Positions 2,610-13,858 of a stretch of DNA of 64,000 bases are shown here, in pieces; the stretch's first letter is position 1, and every line of letters starts with the position of its first letter. The translations under genes and the position numbers were made by a program. The notes beneath the pieces were generated by a model that had not been told where the DNA came from, ran no database searches, and saw nothing but the letters and a program-made list of their open reading frames with translations. This DNA is from Thermoanaerobaculia bacterium. Lineage in GTDB: Bacteria > Acidobacteriota > Thermoanaerobaculia > Multivoradales > Multivoraceae. The stretch is taken from positions 736,001 through 800,000 of the forward strand of contig OY762911.1 of NCBI GenBank assembly GCA_963666565.1. The letters are read 5' to 3'.

Positions 2610-4226
2610 TCAGGCGCCCCAGACGGTCACGGGCCGGCCGCCGAGGGACTCCTCGCGACGGTAGAGCTTCTCCTCCCACGGCTTCGACGCGTCCCGGTCG
2701 AAGATCACCAGGTGGCCCGACTCGGCGCCGCACTTGTCCATGTAGGCCAGGGTCTGCTCCAGGCCCTCGCGGATCGTCGCCTCCAGGCCGCCGCGCAGGA
2801 TCTTGCACTCCACGACGTAGCGGCGCGCCGGCACGCCGGGCTCGGCGGCGCCGGCGAAGCGGCCCGGCGGCCACACGATCAGCAGGTCCGTCCGGCGGCT
2901 GCCCAGCGCGTACTCCCGCTCGATCCGGCCGCCGCCGTTCACGATCCGCTGGAGGAACGTCTGCAGAATCAACTGCGGACCCGCCTCCTTGTACTGGAAC
3001 CGCTCGAGCCAGTGCTCCGAGTGTTCGCGGAAGAAGCGCTGAAACGCCGCCAGCAAGCCCTCCGCGTCCAGGTCGCCGTCCGGCTTCACGTACCACTCCG
3101 TCTCCTGGACGATCTCCGACTCGCGGGCGTACATGAGTTCCCGCGGGATCACTTCGCGGTAGATCGGATTGGCGATCTTCGCCGTGCCGCGCCTCGTCAG
3201 CAGACCCAGGTCCCGAACGTACTCCACGTCGTTCGAGCTGGCCATGTCCGTCCCGTTCGCGGCGCCGCCGCTCAGCACCGGCTCGACCACGCGCCGCACA
3301 CGCTCCTCCCGGAGCTTGTCCGCCAACTGGTGCAGGTGGGTCTGGCGGCTCAGGATCAACTCCTCGCGCGCCTCCATGATCTCTTCCTCGTCGATCGTCC
3401 GGGAGCGGTCCCGGTTCGCCCTGTTTCTGAAACAGGCCTGGTAGGCCAGCGCGTTCACCAGCCACGGCTGGCCCCGGGACTGGTCCCACACTGCGGCGAC
3501 CGCGCCCTCGGTGAACTCCTGACCCGTCTCCTCCGCGTGCTGACCGAGCAGCGTGCGGACGTCCGCCTCGTCGAAGTCGCCGAGCCGCAGCGACTCCGCC
3601 TTGATGTTGAAGGCGCTGCCGCCGGCGATGATCTCGCCCGCCGACTCCGAGTGGATGCGGTAGTCCCGCACGTCGCGGATGCCGCAGAGGATGACGCTCT
3701 GAGGAAACGCGGCCGGCCGTTGATCGTAGCCGGCGCGCAACTGGCGGAGCACGGAGATCAGGGTGTCGCCGACCAGCGCGTCGATCTCGTCGATCATCAA
3801 CACGAGGGGCTTGGCGTCGGCCAGCGACCAGCGACCCAGGGCCAACCGCAGCGCTCCGTGCGGCCCGGCGCGCGTCAGCGCCTCTTCCCACATGCCGTCC
3901 AGGAAGGCGTCGCCATGCGCAACGAGCGCCCGTTCGGAGATCTCGGCCAGCACCGTTCGTATTCCCTCCGCGACATCGCCTCGCGCGGTCTGCGCGGTCT
4001 CGACGTTCGCGTACACGCAGCGGTGTTCGCCGCCCTCGTTCAGCAGGTCGCGCAACGCGAGCAGCGCCGAGGTCTTCCCGGTCTGGCGCGGCGCGTGCAG
4101 CACGAAGTAGCGCTCGTCCCGGATGAGGCGCAGAACCTCGTCGAGGTCGAACCGCTCAAGCGGCGGGATGCTGTAGTGCTTGGCCGGAACCACCGGCCCG
4201 GTGGTGTTGAAGAATCGCTCGGTCAT
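2610..4226 (-). CDS. AAA-like ATPase with C-terminal PD-(D/E)XK nuclease domain
   Basis: FFNTTGP start, HAPRQTGKTS Walker A, LMIDEID Walker B, EREYALGSRRTDLLI...VVECK nuclease motif. Confidence 0.88.
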   Translation of the reverse strand: MTERFFNTTGPVVPAKHYSIPPLERFDLDEVLRLIRDERYFVLHAPRQTGKTSALLALRDLLNEGGEHRCVYANVETAQTARGDVAEGIRTVLAEISERALVAHGDAFLDGMWEEALTRAGPHGALRLALGRWSLADAKPLVLMIDEIDALVGDTLISVLRQLRAGYDQRPAAFPQSVILCGIRDVRDYRIHSESAGEIIAGGSAFNIKAESLRLGDFDEADVRTLLGQHAEETGQEFTEGAVAAVWDQSRGQPWLVNALAYQACFRNRANRDRSRTIDEEEIMEAREELILSRQTHLHQLADKLREERVRRVVEPVLSGGAANGTDMASSNDVEYVRDLGLLTRRGTAKIANPIYREVIPRELMYARESEIVQETEWYVKPDGDLDAEGLLAAFQRFFREHSEHWLERFQYKEAGPQLILQTFLQRIVNGGGRIEREYALGSRRTDLLIVWPPGRFAGAAEPGVPARRYVVECKILRGGLEATIREGLEQTLAYMDKCGAESGHLVIFDRDASKPWEEKLYRREESLGGRPVTVWGA

Positions 4227-4447
4227 CGGCTTCGGCTCGCCGTCTTGGCGACTCCTCTCCGCATCGTAGCGCGTGCCGCCCGCCGGGTGCGCGGGTCTTC
4301 CGACCCGCTTCCGGGCGCAGCCGCGAAAGCGGCGGAGACCGGAGAGAATGGACGCCGCATGGGTAATGGGATGGTCCGCCCCGCCCTCTACGGCCTCTTG
4401 TAGGGCCAGAATGGGTTTTTCCCAACCAACAAGGGAGGAGACGGACC

Positions 4448-5506
4448 ATGAAGAAGGTTACTCGAGTCGGTATCGATCTGGGCAAGCGCCTGTTCCAGGT
4501 GTGCGCGATGGACTCGTCGGGCGCGGTGGTGTTTCAGCGTCAGGTGAAGGCGTCGGGGCTGATGGAGTTGATGGTGCAGCTCGAGCCGTGCCTGGTGGGC
4601 ATGGAGGCGAGCTGCGGCGCGCACTACTGGGTGGAGAAGCTGAGCGCTCTGGGTCACGACGCGCGGATGATGAGTCCTCAGTTCGTGCGGCCTTACGTGA
4701 AGTCGAACAAGAGCGACTACCACGACGCGGAGGCGATCTGCGAGGCGGTGTCCCGTCCGACGATGCGTTTCGTGCCGTACAAGACGAAGGAGCAGCGTGC
4801 TCTTCAGCAGGTTCATCGGAGCCGGGAGGCGGCGCTTCGCCGTCGCACGCAGTTGGTGAACCAGTTGCGGGGATTCCTGGGCGAGTACGGGATCGTGCTG
4901 CGTCAGGGCCGGGCGGTGGTCATGCGGGCGGTGCCCGACATCGCGAGCGACGCGGAGCGCGAGCTGCCGGGTCAGTTTCGCGCGCTGCTGTGGATGCAGT
5001 ACGAGGCTCTGATGCAGGTCCACAAGGAGGTCGAGGACCTGACCGCGATGCTGGTGCGGGAGTCGAAGGAGAACCCTCACTGCCAGCGTCTGATGTCGAT
5101 TCCGGGCATCGGTCCGATCGTGGCGACGGCGATCGTGGCGGCGGTGGGCAACGGCTGGGCTTTCAGCAGCGGTCGTCAGATGTCGGCCTGGATGGGCTTG
5201 GTGCCGCGTCAGGACTCGACCGGGGGTCGCACGGTGCTGCGCGGGATCAGCAAGCGCGGCGACCGTTACCTGCGCTCGCTCCTGATCCACGGTGCGCGGG
5301 CGGTCCTGCGCACGGCGGCGAAGGGCGAGCGAACGCGGCTGAAGGGCTGGGCGCTCGACGTCAAGCGGCGCCGGGGGCCGAACGTCGCCACGGTGGCACT
5401 GGCCAACAAGCTGGGCCGCATCGCCTGGGCGGTGCTTCGCCGCGGCGAGCTGTACCGCGACGACCGCCTCGCCGGGTCTCGGCAGAAGGTCTCTCGGGCC
5501 GCGTAG
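4448..5506 (+). CDS. IS110/IS1111 DEDD transposase (recombinase)
   Basis: VGIDLGK, GMEASCGAHYW, KSDYHDAEAI, IPGIGPI, GLVPRQDSTGG (catalytic Ser), ISKRGDRYLR. Confidence 0.97.
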   Translation: MKKVTRVGIDLGKRLFQVCAMDSSGAVVFQRQVKASGLMELMVQLEPCLVGMEASCGAHYWVEKLSALGHDARMMSPQFVRPYVKSNKSDYHDAEAICEAVSRPTMRFVPYKTKEQRALQQVHRSREAALRRRTQLVNQLRGFLGEYGIVLRQGRAVVMRAVPDIASDAERELPGQFRALLWMQYEALMQVHKEVEDLTAMLVRESKENPHCQRLMSIPGIGPIVATAIVAAVGNGWAFSSGRQMSAWMGLVPRQDSTGGRTVLRGISKRGDRYLRSLLIHGARAVLRTAAKGERTRLKGWALDVKRRRGPNVATVALANKLGRIAWAVLRRGELYRDDRLAGSRQKVSRAA

Positions 5507-5559
5507 CAGGCGGCTCGATCCACATCGAATCAACCAAGGAGGATTGCCCCACCAAGTCG

Positions 5560-5775
5560 TTGCGAGGACACAACGGAGCGATGGCGAAACAGGTCGGACC
5601 GGCGCGTCGAGAGCCTGAACCCGCGCAGGGCCATTCAACAGGCCGTCTGGGTGTACAGAAGAGACGACGCGCGCGTATTCCATCGGGGCCAGGGAGCTCG
5701 AAACCACGAGACGCCCAACAACAGGCCGAATACATGCAAGCAACGACACCTCTCTCGCCGGAACTCCGGAAAGTG
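5560..5775 (+). ncRNA. Putative bridge/seekRNA of the IS1111 element (ends approximate)
   Basis: Stem GCGCGTCG/CGACGCGC (5602-5609 and 5665-5672) encloses ACCCGCGCA (5619-5627) and CTGGGTG (5647-5653), which match both REP strands; a second loop has ATTCCATC and ATACAT matching the IS end junction. Confidence 0.8.
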
Positions 5776-5778
5776 CCC

Positions 5779-5804
5779 TTGCACAAGCGGGGCGGACCAT
5801 ACAT
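5779..5804 (+). promoter_or_regulatory. -35 half of circle-junction promoter
   Basis: TTGCAC (5779-5784), a 17-bp spacer, then CAT, completed to CATAAT by left-end AAT (4365-4367) on circularisation. Confidence 0.75.
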
Positions 5805-6045
5805 GCGCGGGTCTTCTGACCCGCTTCCGGGCGCAGCCGCGAAAGCGGCGGAGACCGGAGAGAATGGACGCCGCATGGGTGCGCGGGTCTTCCGACCCGC
5901 ATCGGTGCGCGGGTTTTCTGACCCGCTTTCCGCCGCAGGCGGCGGCCAGTATCGTCGCCGGCCTCCGGCCGGCGTCCATTCCCCCCGGCCTCCGCCGCTT
6001 CGCGGCGGCGCCCGGATGCGGGTCGGAAGACCCGCGCACCCAGCG
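5804..6045. repeat. REP array plus type-A REPIN right of the IS
   Basis: 76-bp unit repeated left (4285-4360) and right (5804-5879) of the IS, then further REPs and an inverted REP. Confidence 0.9.
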
Positions 6046-6555: not shown

Positions 6556-8955
6556 CTATGGCGGCTCGAAGCCGAGAACCTCGCCGTAGAAGGCGAGCTC
6601 CGCCTCCAGCGCGCGGACGATGTTCCCGGCGCGGCGAAAGCCGTGCTGCTCGCCTTCGAAGAGGTGGTAGTCGACGCGGACGCCCTTGGCGCGCAGCGCC
6701 TCGACCATCGCCTCGGCCTGGTTCGGCGGCACGATGCGGTCTTCGTCGCCCTGGAAGAAGATGACGGGGCAGGAGAAGCGGTCGCGGGCTTCGAGCGGCG
6801 AGCGCTCGCGGTAGAGGTCGGCGCGCTCCGGGTAGGGGCCGACCAGGCCGTCGAGGTAGCGGGACTCGAACTTGTGGGTGTCGCGGGCGAGGGCGGCGAG
6901 ATCGGCGACGCCGTAGTGGCTGGCGCCGGCGGCGAAGGTGTCCGTGAAGGCGAGCGCGGCGAGGGTGCTGTAGCCGCCGGCGCTGCCGCCGCGGATGAGC
7001 AGCCTGGCCGGGTCGGCCTCGCCGCGGGCGGCCAGGGCCTCGGCGGCGGCGGCGCAGTCCTCGACGTCGACGATGCCCCAGCGGCCGCGCAGCGACTCGC
7101 GGTAGGCGCTGCCGTAGCCGGTGCTGCCGCCGTAGTTCACGTCGACGACGGCGAAGCCGCGCGAGGTCCAGAACTGGACGCCGGGGTCGTGGACGTGCTC
7201 GGCGGCGGAGGTCGGGCCGCCATGGCTCATGACGATGAGCGGCGGGCGGGCGCCGGCGGGCGGCGTGACGTCGTCGTTCTTCGGCGGGTAGAAGAACGCG
7301 AACGCGCGGCGGCCGCCGGCCGACGGGAACTCGATGTGCCGGCCGGTGGAGAGATAGCGGGGGTCCGGGGCCTGGCCGGTCGTGACGAGGACGTCGAGCT
7401 CGGGCGCGGCGGGATCCGCCAGCGAGAGGCGGACGATCTCCGCCGGCCGATCCGGCGCGCCGCCGAGGAAGAAGACGGAAGGCACCCCACTGGGTGCAGC
7501 CGAGCGGCCACTGGGTGCGCGGGTCTCCTGACCTCCGCTGGGTGCGCGGGTCTTCCGACCCGCATCCGTCCCACTGGGTGCGCGGGTCTTCCGACCCGCA
7601 TCCGCCCCGCTGGGTGCGCGGGTCTTCCGACCCGCATCCGCCCCGCTGGGTGCGCGGGTCTTCCGACCCGCATCCGCCCCACTGGGTGCGCGGGTCTTCC
7701 GACCCGCATCCGCCCCACTGGGTGCGCGGGTCTTCCGACCCGCATCCGCCCCACTGGGTGCGCGGGTCTTCTGACCCGCAACCGGCCCGGCAGAGCGCCC
7801 GATCGAAGTGTAAGGCGTCGCAATGCGGATCGGCCGCGGGGCTTCTCCGCCATCCCGTGCCTCCGGCAGGAACTCGAGCCCCCAGCCCCCCCGCTCGCAA
7901 CAGGCGGCGACGATGCCGCCCGGCACGTGCGCGTACGTGGACGTGCCGAAGACCCAGGGCGGCCGGCCGAACTCGGCGTCGCGGGGGCAGAGCGGCTCGA
8001 CCTTCGCCGATGCGGCACGGTACAGGTTCCACCAGCCGCCGCGGTCGGAGACGAAGACGAGGCGGCCGCGGGAGTCGAAGCTCGGCTGCTGGACGGCCTC
8101 GGGCCGGTCCGGGTCGCCGCCGGCGACGACGCGCGCCGCCTGGGGCAGACCGTCCTCGTCCAGGTCGGCCAGATGGAGCGTCGTCGTGTCCCACGGCATG
8201 TCGGGGTGGTTCCAGCTCAGCCAGGCGAGGCGGTTGCCGCCTGGCGAGAGGCGCGGCGAGCTGAAGAAGTCCGCGCCGGAGACGAGTGCGACGGGGCGCG
8301 GAGGCTCGACGGCACCGGGCGATTCGACGGCGCCGGGCGGCTCGATGACACCGGACAGATCCGCCGGCAAGGCGATCGCGACCAGGGAAGCGACTTCGTC
8401 GCCGCCGTCCGGGCCGGGGCGTTCCTGGACCGCGATCAGGCGGTGGCGGTGACTGTCGAAGACGAGATCGGCGTAGCGGGCGCCGTCGGCCGGGGTCAGG
8501 GGGACGGCGGCGTCCGCGGCACTCGCTCCAGCGGCGGTGAGGTAAACGCGCTGATCGGCGAAGTTGACGAAGGCGTGGAGGAGCGGCTCGGGCTCGCCGC
8601 TTCGCGGCGTCGCGCTCGATGCGGGCCAGAAGGCCCGCGCACCGACCCGTGTGGCGCCGGCAGTCGATGCGGCGGCGCCGAGCAGGCAGAAGGCGCCGCC
8701 GCCGTATTCGTGGACGCGGCTGCGCACGTCGAAGCCCTCGGGCGTCAGCGTGCGGACGCCGCCGTCCGGGTCGCGGCAGACGAGGACGTTGCGGCCGCCC
8801 TCCTCGGGCCGCCGCTCCAGCCAGCAGACGAACTCGCCCAGCACGGCGAGGTCGTCGATGCGGCGGCCGCCTTCCGCGACGGACCGCGCCGAGATCGGCG
8901 ACGGCCAGGCGCCGTAGGGGACGGCGGCGGCGCCGCGTGGTGGATCGTCAGCCAT
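6556..8955 (-). CDS. S9 family peptidase (acylaminoacyl/dipeptidyl peptidase) with in-frame REP insertions
   Basis: PYGAWPSPIS, HGGPT, GGSAGG nucleophile, QGDED..VP, GEQHGFR; start taken as ATG 8955. Confidence 0.93.
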   Translation of the reverse strand: MADDPPRGAAAVPYGAWPSPISARSVAEGGRRIDDLAVLGEFVCWLERRPEEGGRNVLVCRDPDGGVRTLTPEGFDVRSRVHEYGGGAFCLLGAAASTAGATRVGARAFWPASSATPRSGEPEPLLHAFVNFADQRVYLTAAGASAADAAVPLTPADGARYADLVFDSHRHRLIAVQERPGPDGGDEVASLVAIALPADLSGVIEPPGAVESPGAVEPPRPVALVSGADFFSSPRLSPGGNRLAWLSWNHPDMPWDTTTLHLADLDEDGLPQAARVVAGGDPDRPEAVQQPSFDSRGRLVFVSDRGGWWNLYRAASAKVEPLCPRDAEFGRPPWVFGTSTYAHVPGGIVAACCERGGWGLEFLPEARDGGEAPRPIRIATPYTSIGRSAGPVAGQKTRAPSGADAGRKTRAPSGADAGRKTRAPSGADAGRKTRAPSGADAGRKTRAPSGADAGRKTRAPSGTDAGRKTRAPSGGQETRAPSGRSAAPSGVPSVFFLGGAPDRPAEIVRLSLADPAAPELDVLVTTGQAPDPRYLSTGRHIEFPSAGGRRAFAFFYPPKNDDVTPPAGARPPLIVMSHGGPTSAAEHVHDPGVQFWTSRGFAVVDVNYGGSTGYGSAYRESLRGRWGIVDVEDCAAAAEALAARGEADPARLLIRGGSAGGYSTLAALAFTDTFAAGASHYGVADLAALARDTHKFESRYLDGLVGPYPERADLYRERSPLEARDRFSCPVIFFQGDEDRIVPPNQAEAMVEALRAKGVRVDYHLFEGEQHGFRRAGNIVRALEAELAFYGEVLGFEPP
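7488..7782. repeat. Tandem REP array, 36-bp unit, in frame in the S9 peptidase
   Basis: 7 full units plus 1 degenerate unit; encodes repeated [12 protein letters not shown]. Confidence 0.95.
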
Positions 8956-8974
8956 TGGCGAAGCGTAACCGGCC

Positions 8975-9150
8975 CACTGGGTGCGGCTGGGTGCCGCTGG
9001 CGCCACTGGGTGCGCGGGTCTTCTGACCCGCATCGGGCAGAGGCGCGAAGCGGCGGCGCCCGGAGAAGAAGGCCGCCGGCCAAAGGCCGGCGACGATGTC
9101 CTTCGCCGCCATGCGGGTCGGAAAGACCCGCGCACCCAGCGGCACCCGGT
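8975..9150. repeat. Leader-only repeats plus type-A REPIN
   Basis: CTGGGTGC repeats followed by an inverted REP pair at about 9007-9138. Confidence 0.88.
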
Positions 9151-12970: not shown

Positions 12971-13117
12971 GTTCAGGGGTGGGTGTGTGTGGCCGCCGGG
13001 TGCCGCACTGGGTGCCGCTGGGCGCCACTGGGTGCGCGGCGGGGGCACCCGGTGCGGAAACTCATGGACGCTCCGGCCTCCCCGTCCGTACCTTCCTTCA
13101 GCAGCCGGAGCAAACGA

Positions 13118-13858
13118 ATGAACGACGCGAACCACGAACCGGACGAACCCACGCCGCTCGGCTGGCACTGGAGGGGCTACCACCCCCACCTGGACGACCC
13201 GAGCCGGCTCCAGAGCGTCGGATTCCGGCTCGCGGACAGCGTGCCGCAACATCTCCTGAAACGTTGGCGCGAGGAAGCCGAAGGGTCCAGCGACAAGGTC
13301 CGCGCCGCGAAGGTCCACCGCCTGGTCAGCGAATTCGAGGACACGGGCTACGGCGCTTGCCACCTGCGCCAGCCGGCGATCGCCTCGGTGGTCCAGGACG
13401 CGCTCCTCTACGGCGACGGCGACGCCTATCGACTCCTCGAGTGGTGCGTCATGCCGAACCACATCCACGCCCTGCTGGAGCCGCGGCGGCCGCTCCCTGG
13501 CATCGTGCGGGCGTGGAAGGCGATCACCGCGCGCCGGGCCAACCGGATCCTGCACCGCAAGGGCCGCTTCTGGATGGTCGACTACTACGACCGGTTCATC
13601 CGCAACCGCCGGCACCTCGAAACCGTGCGACGCTACATCCAGCACAACCCCGTCGGCGCCGGCCTGTGCCGCGCGCCGCACGACTGGCCATGGTCGTCCG
13701 CCCACCAGCGCTGGGTGCGCGGGTCTTCCGACCCACACTGGGTGCGCGGGTCTTCCGACCCGCATCCGGTACGCGGGTCTTCTGACCCGCATCCGGTACG
13801 CGGGTCTTCTGACCCGCATCGGGCGACGTCGCGAAGCGGCGCAGACCGGAAGAAGTAG
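13118..13858 (+). CDS. REP-associated tyrosine transposase (RAYT, Y1/HUH)
   Basis: RGYHPH...FRLADS, WCVMPNHIHAL (HUH), W-K, FW..DYYDRFIR, RYIQHNP (catalytic Tyr), WPWSSA; REP leaders upstream and REPs downstream. Confidence 0.93.
   Translation: MNDANHEPDEPTPLGWHWRGYHPHLDDPSRLQSVGFRLADSVPQHLLKRWREEAEGSSDKVRAAKVHRLVSEFEDTGYGACHLRQPAIASVVQDALLYGDGDAYRLLEWCVMPNHIHALLEPRRPLPGIVRAWKAITARRANRILHRKGRFWMVDYYDRFIRNRRHLETVRRYIQHNPVGAGLCRAPHDWPWSSAHQRWVRGSSDPHWVRGSSDPHPVRGSSDPHPVRGSSDPHRATSRSGADRKK

What the first reader, a model, noticed from the sequence alone, without database searches (positions are those of the whole stretch)
4361..5825. IS1111-type element inserted precisely into the REP leader
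Removing 4365-5803 and one shared T restores GGGTGCGCGGGTCTTCTGACCCGC. The inverted repeats are subterminal (6-7 nt from the left end, 3-4 nt from the right) and there is no target-site duplication. REP-targeting IS110 members are known in Gammaproteobacteria (IS621, ISPa11). Here the target is a different REP family, present about 90 times in this window alone, in a probable acidobacterium. This gives three layers: RAYT spreads REPs, and the IS uses REPs as landing pads.
Basis: partly seen in the sequence, partly recalled or inferred. Interest (0 to 1): 0.8.

Follow-up and report, generated by a model that had tools for sequence, protein, structure and literature searches.

The report
RNA-guided insertion sequence targeting REPs
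This is an intact jumping gene of the IS1111 kind that appears to use its own small guide RNA to land at one exact spot in a short repeat found hundreds of times in a probable acidobacterial genome; the mechanism was described in 2024, so this is a clean new example and not a new system.

Summary
Window 4365-5804 is a 1440-bp IS110-family element of the IS1111 group. It has a 352-aa DEDD transposase, 14-bp subterminal inverted repeats, a 298-bp non-coding tail and no target-site duplication. All 5 copies in the genome are 100% identical. All sit at TGGGT|GCGCGGGTC, at the 5' edge of the host REP, in one orientation. About 526 uninterrupted sites of this kind remain.

The tail encodes a seekRNA/bridge-RNA-type guide. 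ACCCGCGCA (5619-5627) is complementary to the top strand at the cut. CTGGGTG (5647-5653) is complementary to the bottom strand. This is the order published for IS1111 seekRNAs.

Relatives in other genomes of the same genus changed 1-3 guide letters and sit in correspondingly different REP families. Across 23 relatives the RNA scaffold shows compensatory base-pair changes, and the loops match each element's own flanks.

REP-targeting IS110/IS1111 elements and natural guide redirection are already published, and this scan has met the kind before on other DNA. It is therefore a new member of a known kind, in a new phylum and a new REP family.

There is no expression, circle-junction or empty-site evidence. 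The RAYT layer is plausible but not shown.

The parts
4359..4364 (+). Left half of the split target (ATGGGT here; CTGGGT at the other 45 of 46 insertions examined)
4365..5804 (+). The insertion sequence, 1440 bp. One T is ambiguous, so 4364-5803 is equally valid.
   Evidence: 5 copies at 100% identity in the genome; junctions
4371..4384 (+). Left subterminal inverted repeat ATGGTCCGCCCCGC
4448..5506 (+). Transposase/recombinase gene, 352 aa. DEDD RuvC-like domain plus C-terminal Transposase_20 domain. GLVPRQDSTG motif at residues 250-259.
   Evidence: PF01548 and PF02371; NF033542 341 bits; 40% identity over 336 aa to an IS4321 transposase; D10, E53, D90 and D93 invariant in 17 relatives
5507..5804 (+). 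3' non-coding region, 298 bp against 83 bp at the left end
   Evidence: as conserved as codon positions 1-2
5580..5736 (+). Predicted seekRNA/bridge-RNA-type guide scaffold. Helices: P1 5580-5584/5680-5684; outer stem 5602-5609/5665-5672; inner hairpin 5629-5632/5641-5644; second-domain stem 5687-5690/5724-5727.
   Evidence: 23-sequence alignment A3; 15 of 25 pairs with compensatory change; 96.9% of cells paired against 79.3% in shuffles
5619..5627 (+). Guide segment ACCCGCGCA, complementary to the top strand T|GCGCGGGT
5647..5653 (+). Guide segment CTGGGTG, complementary to the bottom strand of CTGGGT|G
5677..5683 (+). Candidate donor-side segment ATTCCAT. It could pair with left-end bases ATGGGAT (4366-4372) with one G:U. 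It is near-invariant in relatives, without covariation.
   Evidence: inference
5730..5736 (+). Candidate donor-side segment ATACATG, the same sense as the right terminus ATACAT
   Evidence: The C/T letter agrees with the right end in 21 of 21 relatives
5779..5784 (+). TTGCAC, a -35-like hexamer. With 17 nt of spacer it would face a -10 (CATAAT) that forms only when the two ends are joined in a circle.
   Evidence: TTG-type hexamer at this place in most relatives; inference
5787..5800 (+). Right subterminal inverted repeat GCGGGGCGGACCAT
5805..5824 (+). Right half of the split target: REP core GCGCGGGTCTTCTGACCCGC (7-bp stem, 4-nt loop)

Best explanation
Window 4365-5804 is an intact, recently active IS1111-group (IS110-family) insertion sequence.

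Its 3' non-coding region encodes a structured guide RNA of the seekRNA/bridge-RNA type. Two loop segments of this RNA flank a small hairpin and pair with the two strands of the 14-nt site CTGGGT|GCGCGGGT, the 5' edge of the host REP.

The DEDD recombinase, loaded with this RNA, recombines the circularised element with that site at T|G. The result has one orientation and no duplication. Joining the ends in the circle would also assemble a promoter, TTGCAC-N17-CATAAT.

Because the site is a REP, the genome offers hundreds of intergenic landing pads. Relatives in sister genomes changed 1-3 guide letters and now land in whichever REP family is common there.

Shown here: element anatomy, copy identity, site specificity, guide-target complementarity and its covariation, and RNA structural covariation.

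Inferred from the published family mechanism: the RNA exists, it binds the recombinase, a circle forms, and the junction promoter works.
For: (1) Family. PF01548 and PF02371 are present. NF033542 scores 341 bits against a cut-off of 140. The transposase is 40% identical over 336 aa to an IS4321 transposase.

(2) Copies. 5 of 5 copies are 100% identical and sit at TGGGT|GCGCGGGTC in one orientation.

(3) Guide segments. They lie at 5619-5627 and 5647-5653, overlap at the cut, and have the top-strand match 5' of the bottom-strand match. This is the layout described for IS1111 seekRNAs (PMC11187229 section 9). A pair this good, in this order, arose in 1 of 5000 dinucleotide shuffles and 8 of 5000 random genomic windows.

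(4) Covariation within the genus, over 46 distinct insertions in the loci fetched.
- Left flank is CTGGGT in 45 of 46.
- The element's own guide makes 9 of 9 Watson-Crick pairs in 28, 8 of 9 in 17 (15 of these are a G:U), and 4 of 9 in 1.
- Mean is 8.52 with the own guide against 6.93 with the guides of other variants.
- The variant with guide GTCGGCGCA (23 insertions) sits at T|GCGCCGRC. Its host has 0 GCGCGGGTC-type sites and 413 GCGCCGRC-type sites. Hosts of ACCCGCGCA variants have 52 against 21 and 68 against 40, and the window's genome 525 against 70.

(5) Wider clade (46-57% aa identity).
- The RNA scaffold is conserved: 15 of 25 pairs show compensatory change, 96.9% of cells are paired against 79.3% in shuffles (0 of 500 reach it), and slid controls reach at most 49%.
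- In 17 loci with defined ends, the mean longest guide-flank match is 6.88/7.29 nt with the own target against 2.90/3.21 across lineages.
- 10 of 17 own pairs reach T>=7 and B>=6, against 0 of 236 cross pairs.

(6) Conservation. The tail is conserved like codon positions 1-2 (0.856 against 0.866/0.885) and well above position 3 (0.755).

(7) Donor side. The letter in AUA[C/U]AUG agrees with the right terminus CATA[C/T]AT in 21 of 21 sequences: 7 C/C, including one unrelated lineage, and 14 T/T.
Against: - No Rfam family matches the tail.
- The single-sequence fold is unremarkable: z = -1.5, and 16 of 200 shuffles fold as well.
- Within the genus the fold shows 0 compensatory pairs of 49, because there is too little divergence.
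- Exceptions to the guide match: L012's guide has one internal mismatch to its only known site; one insertion (L062) has a right flank matching only 4 of 9; and the window's own copy has A instead of C at position -6.
- Alignment A3 was picked with a pattern that required the motifs GATGG[CT], A[TC]TCCAT and ATA[CT]AT. The constancy of helix P1 and of those motifs is therefore partly by construction. The covariation in the other helices and the loop-flank matches are not.
- The 5' donor-side segment shows no covariation with the variable left-end base.
Confidence: 0.9

Rival explanations
1. Dual-match recognition. The guide RNA reads the sequence, but the REP stem-loop next to the paired stretch is a second, structural determinant that the recombinase needs or prefers, as reported for ISPpu10. 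This extends the best explanation and does not replace it.
For: Abstract of bioRxiv 10.64898/2026.03.19.712850. Most insertions tabulated have a hairpin directly 3' of the paired stretch.
Against: This cannot be separated here, because 494 of 526 intact sites carry the hairpin anyway. One of the 5 own copies (C1:347394) sits at a site with only GCGCGGGTC and no REP hairpin. Targeted REPs in the sister genome have three different stems sharing only T|GCGCCGRC.
Confidence: 0.3
2. Protein-only recognition. The transposase itself reads the REP sequence or hairpin, and the matches in the tail are leftovers of REP DNA captured by the element.
For: The REP is so abundant that REP-like words are common. 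8 of 5000 random genomic windows also hold such a pair.
Against: The two matches are in opposite senses around a hairpin, which is not a REP copy. They change with the target in variants whose transposases stay 76-85% identical. Unrelated lineages with non-REP targets show the same loop-flank rule. The scaffold covaries as an RNA.
Confidence: 0.04
3. The REP association is secondary. REPs were added beside resident IS copies, or REP-REP recombination moved them, and the IS did not choose REPs.
For: 3 of the 5 copies lie in tandem REP arrays, and 3 of 5 lie in the REP-dense 600-800 kb region.
Against: Every junction splits a REP at the same phosphodiester bond. Joining the flanks rebuilds an exact REP in 5 of 5 own copies and 45 of 46 overall. 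REP addition would not do this.
Confidence: 0.02

Closest known systems
ISPa11 (IS1111 family, Pseudomonas aeruginosa) and its seekRNA
   Same: IS1111-type element that inserts into the host REP. It has a 3' non-coding region giving a seekRNA with a top-strand match 5' of a bottom-strand match (PMC11187229 sections 9 and 13; abstract of PMC1525189; table in PMC13604230).
   Different: Different phylum, REP sequence and guide. Identity to ISPa11 was not measured because no sequence was on hand. The RNA here is predicted, not purified.
ISEc11 / ISXne4 natural redirection
   Same: Close relatives with a conserved RNA stem whose target-matching letters differ and match different flanks (PMC11187229 section 10).
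   Different: Here the switch is 1-3 letters in one guide only, the left half-site stays constant, and the alternative targets are different REP families of sister genomes.
IS621 (IS110 group, E. coli) bridge RNA
   Same: DEDD recombinase plus a structured RNA whose internal-loop strands pair with both strands of target and donor. The natural target is a REP (PMC11208160, passages read).
   Different: In IS621 the RNA lies in the left end and there are no long subterminal repeats. Here the RNA is in the right end, the repeats are 14 bp, and only a single T is shared between donor and target, against IS621's CT core.
ISPpu9 / ISPpu10 (Pseudomonas putida)
   Same: IS110-family elements inserted specifically into REPs (abstracts of PMC12288879 and of bioRxiv 10.64898/2026.03.19.712850).
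   Different: Different subgroup and host. A stem-loop gate has been tested for ISPpu10 and is untested here.
IS4321 / IS5075 (IS1111 family, enterobacterial plasmids)
   Same: The transposase aligns over its full length at 40% identity, E 7e-90. The gene order is the same, with a 3' non-coding region.
   Different: They target the terminal repeats of Tn21-type transposons, not REPs (title of the Partridge & Hall 2003 reference, seen in the reference list). I could not define the ends of the fetched copy.

Membership tests
IS110 family, IS1111 group | DEDD (RuvC-like) N-terminal domain plus PF02371 C-terminal domain | tested here: met
   PF01548 72.6 bits and PF02371 84.4 bits. NF033542 341 bits against a cut-off of 140. 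D10, E53, D90 and D93 are invariant in 17 relatives.
IS110 family, IS1111 group | Subterminal inverted repeats of about 7-17 bp with short terminal extensions | tested here: met
   14-bp perfect repeat at 4371-4384 and 5787-5800, with extensions of 6-7 nt and 3-4 nt. The range is quoted from PMC11208160.
IS110 family, IS1111 group | Longer non-coding region downstream of the transposase gene | tested here: met
   298 bp downstream against 83 bp upstream. The criterion comes from PMC11187229 section 6.
IS110 family, IS1111 group | Site- and orientation-specific insertion without a target-site duplication | tested here: met
   5 of 5 own copies; 45 of 46 insertions overall match the rule.
IS110 family, IS1111 group | C-terminal GL-P----S(t)G motif | tested here: met
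   GLVPRQDSTG, residues 250-259, read from the translation. G250, P253, S257 and G259 are invariant in A2. The motif is as written in PMC11187229 section 6.
IS110 family, IS1111 group | Transposase related over its full length to IS1111-group transposases and falling in their clade | tested here: inconclusive
   Full-length 40% identity to IS4321 and 39.9% to IS5075. No tree was built with IS110-group outgroups because none was on hand.
IS1111-type seekRNA / bridge RNA | [quoted passage not shown] | tested here: met
   The layout is from PMC11187229 section 9.
IS1111-type seekRNA / bridge RNA | The RNA is made and co-purifies with the transposase, and is needed for transposition | not testable with these tools
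   No RNA run is listed for this DNA.
REP / RAYT system (the target) | Short palindromic unit in high copy | tested here: met
   659 exact 20-mer cores in 4.79 Mb and 77 in the window. 7-bp stem and 4-nt loop read from the sequence. Whether copies lie mostly between genes was not tallied genome-wide; at least one array lies inside a gene.
REP / RAYT system (the target) | A cognate RAYT (REP-associated tyrosine transposase) flanked by REPs | tested here: inconclusive
   There is a single Y1_Tnp gene in the genome. NF047646 scores 76.3 bits, under the 80-bit cut-off. REPs lie only on its 3' side within about 1.8 kb.
GTAG- or CGTC-tagged REP superfamilies (PMC3733652) | GTAG or CGTC tetranucleotide at one end of the palindrome | tested here: not met
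   Neither tag is in CTGGGTGCGCGGGTCTTCYGACCCGC or its complement, by reading. The superfamily definition is taken from the abstract only.

The most novel reading that the evidence does not exclude
Within one acidobacterial genus, a single IS1111 lineage keeps re-tuning one arm of its guide RNA by 1-3 point changes. In this way it follows whichever REP family has expanded in each host, while the other arm stays fixed on the CTGGGT leader that the REP families share. That would be a three-tier parasite chain (RAYT, REP, RNA-guided IS) caught co-evolving, and a natural example of retargeting by point mutation. The element's copy number and chromosomal distribution would then be set by REP dynamics: 3 of 5 copies lie in the REP-dense region around the RAYT-like gene, and two IS-RAYT neighbour pairs occur in a sister genome.
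Probability: 0.5. Interest if true: 0.5.

Novelty: new member of a known kind. Interest (0 to 1): 0.35.

Why it matters
- It extends REP-targeting by RNA-guided IS1111 elements to Acidobacteriota (Thermoanaerobaculia) and to a REP family that carries neither the GTAG nor the CGTC tag.
- It gives a compact natural series of guide variants (ACCCGCGCA, GACCCGCGCA, GCCCGCGCA, GTCGGCGCA, GCCGCCGCA) with their observed targets, which is useful as natural data on mismatch and G:U tolerance.
- The 23-sequence scaffold, with its variable target loops and near-constant donor segments, could help annotate IS1111 guide RNAs, for which Rfam 15 returned nothing here.
- For genome annotation, it explains why these IS copies and the REPs break short-read assemblies at the same places.

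Tried and rejected
- Rfam scan of 4250-5950 at E<=1: only a chance snaR-A match at E 0.56, far below its gathering score.
- Public runs: no RNA holder is listed.
- Laying Logan contigs of X1, X2, X3 and X5: no contig joins 4364 to 5805 (empty site) or 5804 to 4365 (circle). Contigs break at the REPs, so this says nothing either way.
- The 76-bp direct repeat flanking this copy was considered as a long duplication. Rejected: it is the tandem REP unit, and the other copies show no such 76-bp repeat.
- CAGAAGA (5656-5662), complementary to the REP loop TCTTCTG, was considered as an extended guide explaining the T-loop preference. Rejected: the segment is not conserved in the sister variants, and their genomes are T-loop dominated anyway.
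- IS4321 as a positive control for the guide layout: I could not place its ends in the fetched copy and dropped it.
- A base after AUAYAUG as a 'handshake' match to the right flank: by eye the match is mixed, so no claim is made.
- ISfinder is not available, and supplementary tables of the two 2024 papers are closed. Whether this clade is already listed there is unknown.
Full report
**What is there.** Reading 4200-6000 shows an insert bounded by ...CATGGGT|AATGGGATGG on the left (4364/4365). On the right it is bounded by ...GGACCATACAT|GCGCGGGTCTTCTGACCCGC (5804/5805). One T is shared, so the element is 4365-5804 or 4364-5803, 1440 bp either way. Taking it out rebuilds TGGGT+GCGCGGGTCTTCTGACCCGC, an intact copy of the window's REP.

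A perfect 14-bp inverted repeat lies at 4371-4384 and 5787-5800, 6-7 nt and 3-4 nt inside the ends. There is no duplication of the target. The 76-bp direct repeat on both sides of this copy is a tandem REP-plus-spacer unit that was already there, and the other copies do not share it.

The single long gene (4448-5506, 352 aa) has PF01548 and PF02371. It scores 341 bits on NF033542 'IS110 family RNA-guided transposase' against a cut-off of 140. It aligns over its full length at 40% identity with an IS4321 transposase. It carries the GL-P----TG motif and four invariant acidic residues, D10, E53, D90 and D93. The non-coding region is 83 bp upstream and 298 bp downstream. All of this fits the published description of the IS1111 group (PMC11187229 section 6; PMC11208160 passages).

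**Is it more than chance?** The window's genome is one contig of 4,786,144 bp. It holds 5 copies, all 100% identical over 1440 bp. All five sit at TGGGT|GCGCGGGTC in the same orientation relative to the REP. Four are in full REPs. One (C1:347394) is at a site that has only the first nine bases of the core.

The REP itself is real:
- 77 matches in the window with up to 2 mismatches, against 0.03 expected.
- 659 exact cores in the genome.
- 525 uninterrupted CTGGGTGCGCGGGTC sites.

**How it chooses the site.** In the 3' tail, ACCCGCGCA (5619-5627) is the reverse complement of T|GCGCGGGT. CTGGGTG (5647-5653) is the same sense as CTGGGT|G. The two segments flank a small hairpin (GGCC 5629-5632 with GGCC 5641-5644). 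They are enclosed by an 8-bp stem (5602-5609 with 5665-5672). They overlap at the cut, and the top-strand match comes first. This is the arrangement reported for the seekRNAs of ISEc11, ISPa11 and ISKpn4 (PMC11187229 section 9). A pair this good, in this order and within 80 nt, arose in 1 of 5000 dinucleotide shuffles of the tail and in 8 of 5000 random genomic windows.

**Covariation within the genus.** Relatives at 76-82% protein identity lie in MAGs titled Thermoanaerobaculia or Candidatus Multivorans (Acidobacteriota). In a sample of 151 genomes of the class, 14 had a match at E<=1e-60. Close relatives were found only in the window's own genus, in 6 of 21 sampled genomes besides the window's own. 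Other genera had relatives only at 36-39%.

I collected every locus that held both exact end anchors 1300-1600 nt apart. Partial copies and distant relatives were left out. This gave 46 distinct insertions.
- The left flank is CTGGGT in 45 and ATGGGT in 1, which is the window's copy.
- The guide arm differs between variants and follows the right flank.
- ACCCGCGCA and GACCCGCGCA elements (19 insertions) sit at T|GCGCGGGTC.
- The GTCGGCGCA element (23 insertions in one genome) sits at T|GCGCCGAC or T|GCGCCGGC, the latter through a G:U pair.
- The GCCCGCGCA element (3 insertions) sits at GCGCGGGCC, GCGCGGGTC and GCGCGGACC.
- The own guide gives 9 of 9 Watson-Crick pairs in 28 insertions, 8 of 9 in 17, and 4 of 9 in 1.
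- The mean is 8.52 with the own guide against 6.93 with the guides of other variants.

The hosts differ accordingly:

| Genome | GCGCGGGTC-type sites | GCGCCGRC-type sites |
|---|---|---|
| Host of the GTCGGCGCA element | 0 | 413 |
| Host of an ACCCGCGCA element | 52 | 21 |
| Host of a GACCCGCGCA element | 68 | 40 |
| The window's genome | 525 | 70 |

In the genus-level alignment, the base pairs that RNAalifold drew between the two guide arms are broken in exactly the retargeted variants. No pair is compensatory, 0 of 49. The arms therefore follow the DNA target, not each other.

**The RNA scaffold in the wider clade.** A profile scan returned relatives at 46-57% identity from Proteobacteria, Acidobacteriaceae and others. 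A pattern for three conserved motifs picked out 33 loci and 24 distinct tails. I aligned 23 of them; L126 was left out because the pattern started too early.

RNAalifold gives 25 pairs, 15 of them with compensatory change. On that structure, 96.9% of cells pair against 79.3% in shuffles, and 0 of 500 shuffles reach the observed value. With the 3' partners slid by 1-3 columns, at most 49% pair. All 8 pairs of the outer stem covary. Because the pattern required GATGG[CT], A[TC]TCCAT and ATA[CT]AT, the constancy of helix P1 and of those motifs is partly by construction. The other helices are not affected by this.

In 17 of the 23 loci both ends could be placed by the conserved end motifs AATGGNATGG and CCATAYAT. 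The other six were dropped.
- The mean longest loop-flank match is 6.88 nt (top-strand arm) and 7.29 nt (bottom-strand arm) with each element's own flanks.
- Across lineages the means are 2.90 and 3.21 nt.
- 10 of 17 own pairs reach at least 7 and at least 6, against 0 of 236 cross pairs.
- All 17 targets read T|G at the cut.

The tail of the window's element is as conserved among genus variants as codon positions 1-2, and more than position 3: 0.856 against 0.866/0.885 and 0.755.

**Donor side.** A second domain (stem 5687-5690 with 5724-5727) is flanked by ATTCCAT (5677-5683) and ATACATG (5730-5736). The latter is the same sense as the right terminus. Its C/T letter agrees with the right end in 21 of 21 sequences where both were found: 7 C/C, including one lineage outside the genus, and 14 T/T. 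ATTCCAT could pair with left-end bases 2-8, but it does not covary with the variable middle base there. I regard the 3' donor segment as likely and the 5' one as open. PMC11208160 notes that IS1111 donor-binding nucleotides tend to sit in a multi-loop, which fits helix P1 closing the whole first domain.

**Circle promoter (inference).** TTGCAC at 5779-5784, 17 nt of spacer, and then the last three and first three bases of the element would make CATAAT once the ends are joined. A TTG-type hexamer sits at the same distance in most relatives. Junction promoters are described for this family (review PMC13604230, passage).

**What is missing.**
- No Rfam family covers the tail.
- The lone fold is not exceptional, with z = -1.5.
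- L012's guide has one mismatch to its only site, and one insertion (L062) has an unrelated right flank.
- Whether the REP stem-loop adds specificity, as reported for ISPpu10 (abstract), cannot be told here. 494 of 526 intact sites have the hairpin anyway, and one own copy sits at a hairpin-less site.

**Comparison and novelty.** REP-targeting by IS110-family elements has been known since 2006: ISPa11, ISPpu9, ISPpu10, ISPsy8, ISRm19 and ISRm22 (abstract of PMC1525189). The guide RNA and natural redirection (ISEc11 against ISXne4) were published in 2024. This scan has already reported IS1111-type guide RNAs on other DNA, including one in a REP.

I found no paper pairing 'Thermoanaerobaculia' with 'IS110' (0 hits). 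A search for 'RAYT' with 'Acidobacteri' gave 61 papers. Of the 8 listed, only PMC3733652 was relevant. Its passage concerns tyrosine transposases of Acidobacteria, not IS110 elements. The best named relative is only 40% identical. Unnamed plasmid-borne relatives reach 49%, and unnamed metagenome proteins reach 97%.

Verdict: a real, well-supported new member of a known kind. Its most interesting aspect is the natural guide series that tracks REP families within one genus.

Noticed in passing
window 7544-7779, inside ORF 6556-9135 (-): Seven REPs spaced exactly 36 bp apart lie in frame inside a Peptidase_S9 gene (PF00326, E 1.7e-49). They add a twelve-residue repeat ahead of the S9 catalytic domain, which matches at residues 653-855. 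This is an intragenic REP array with a period that is a multiple of three.
   Followed up: partly
whole genome G000 against sister genomes: The window's genome has about 526 intact target sites, against 52-68 in the two sister genomes counted with the same pattern. Its REPs are mostly the C-loop variant (450 C against 209 T exact cores). The four sister genomes counted for loop type are T-loop dominated: 46/4, 47/13, 41/8 and 11/0. This looks like a recent burst of one REP variant.
   Followed up: partly
G000:C1 copies at 724511, 740365, 803519, 2464004: All 4 own insertions in full REPs are in the T-loop variant, although only 34% (144 of 429) of CTGGGT-led sites are T-loop. The binomial probability is about 0.013. 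No explanation was found.
   Followed up: partly
window 12983-13858 (+): RAYT-like gene, the only Y1_Tnp match in the genome (NF047646 at 76.3 bits against a cut-off of 80). Its reading frame runs on into four REPs, giving [13 protein letters not shown] repeats at the C-terminus. REPs lie only on its 3' side.
   Followed up: partly
G000:C1:600000-800000: REP-dense region around the RAYT-like gene: 105 of 659 cores in 200 kb, against a mean of about 27. It holds 3 of the 5 IS copies.
   Followed up: partly
G028:C1:22084-26354 (loci L075, L081, L171, L172): In a sister genome two IS copies each lie about 190 bp from a RAYT orthologue. They form two tandem IS-RAYT units with a period of 2439 bp.
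   Followed up: no
L159:2635-3816: In a Pseudomonadales relative the guide-RNA region occurs three times in tandem, with a period of 516 bp, after one transposase gene.
   Followed up: no
L062 (G028:C1:about 18013): One insertion of the GTCGGCGCA variant has the usual left flank ACTGGGT but a right flank (GCCTCAGGG...) matching only 4 of 9 guide positions. This is either an off-target insertion or a later rearrangement.
   Followed up: no
window 4360-5813, run X5: A contig from a marine metagenome of another study carries a variant of the element with 20 substitutions and 1 gap. It has the same TGGGT and REP junctions but different outer flanks.
   Followed up: no
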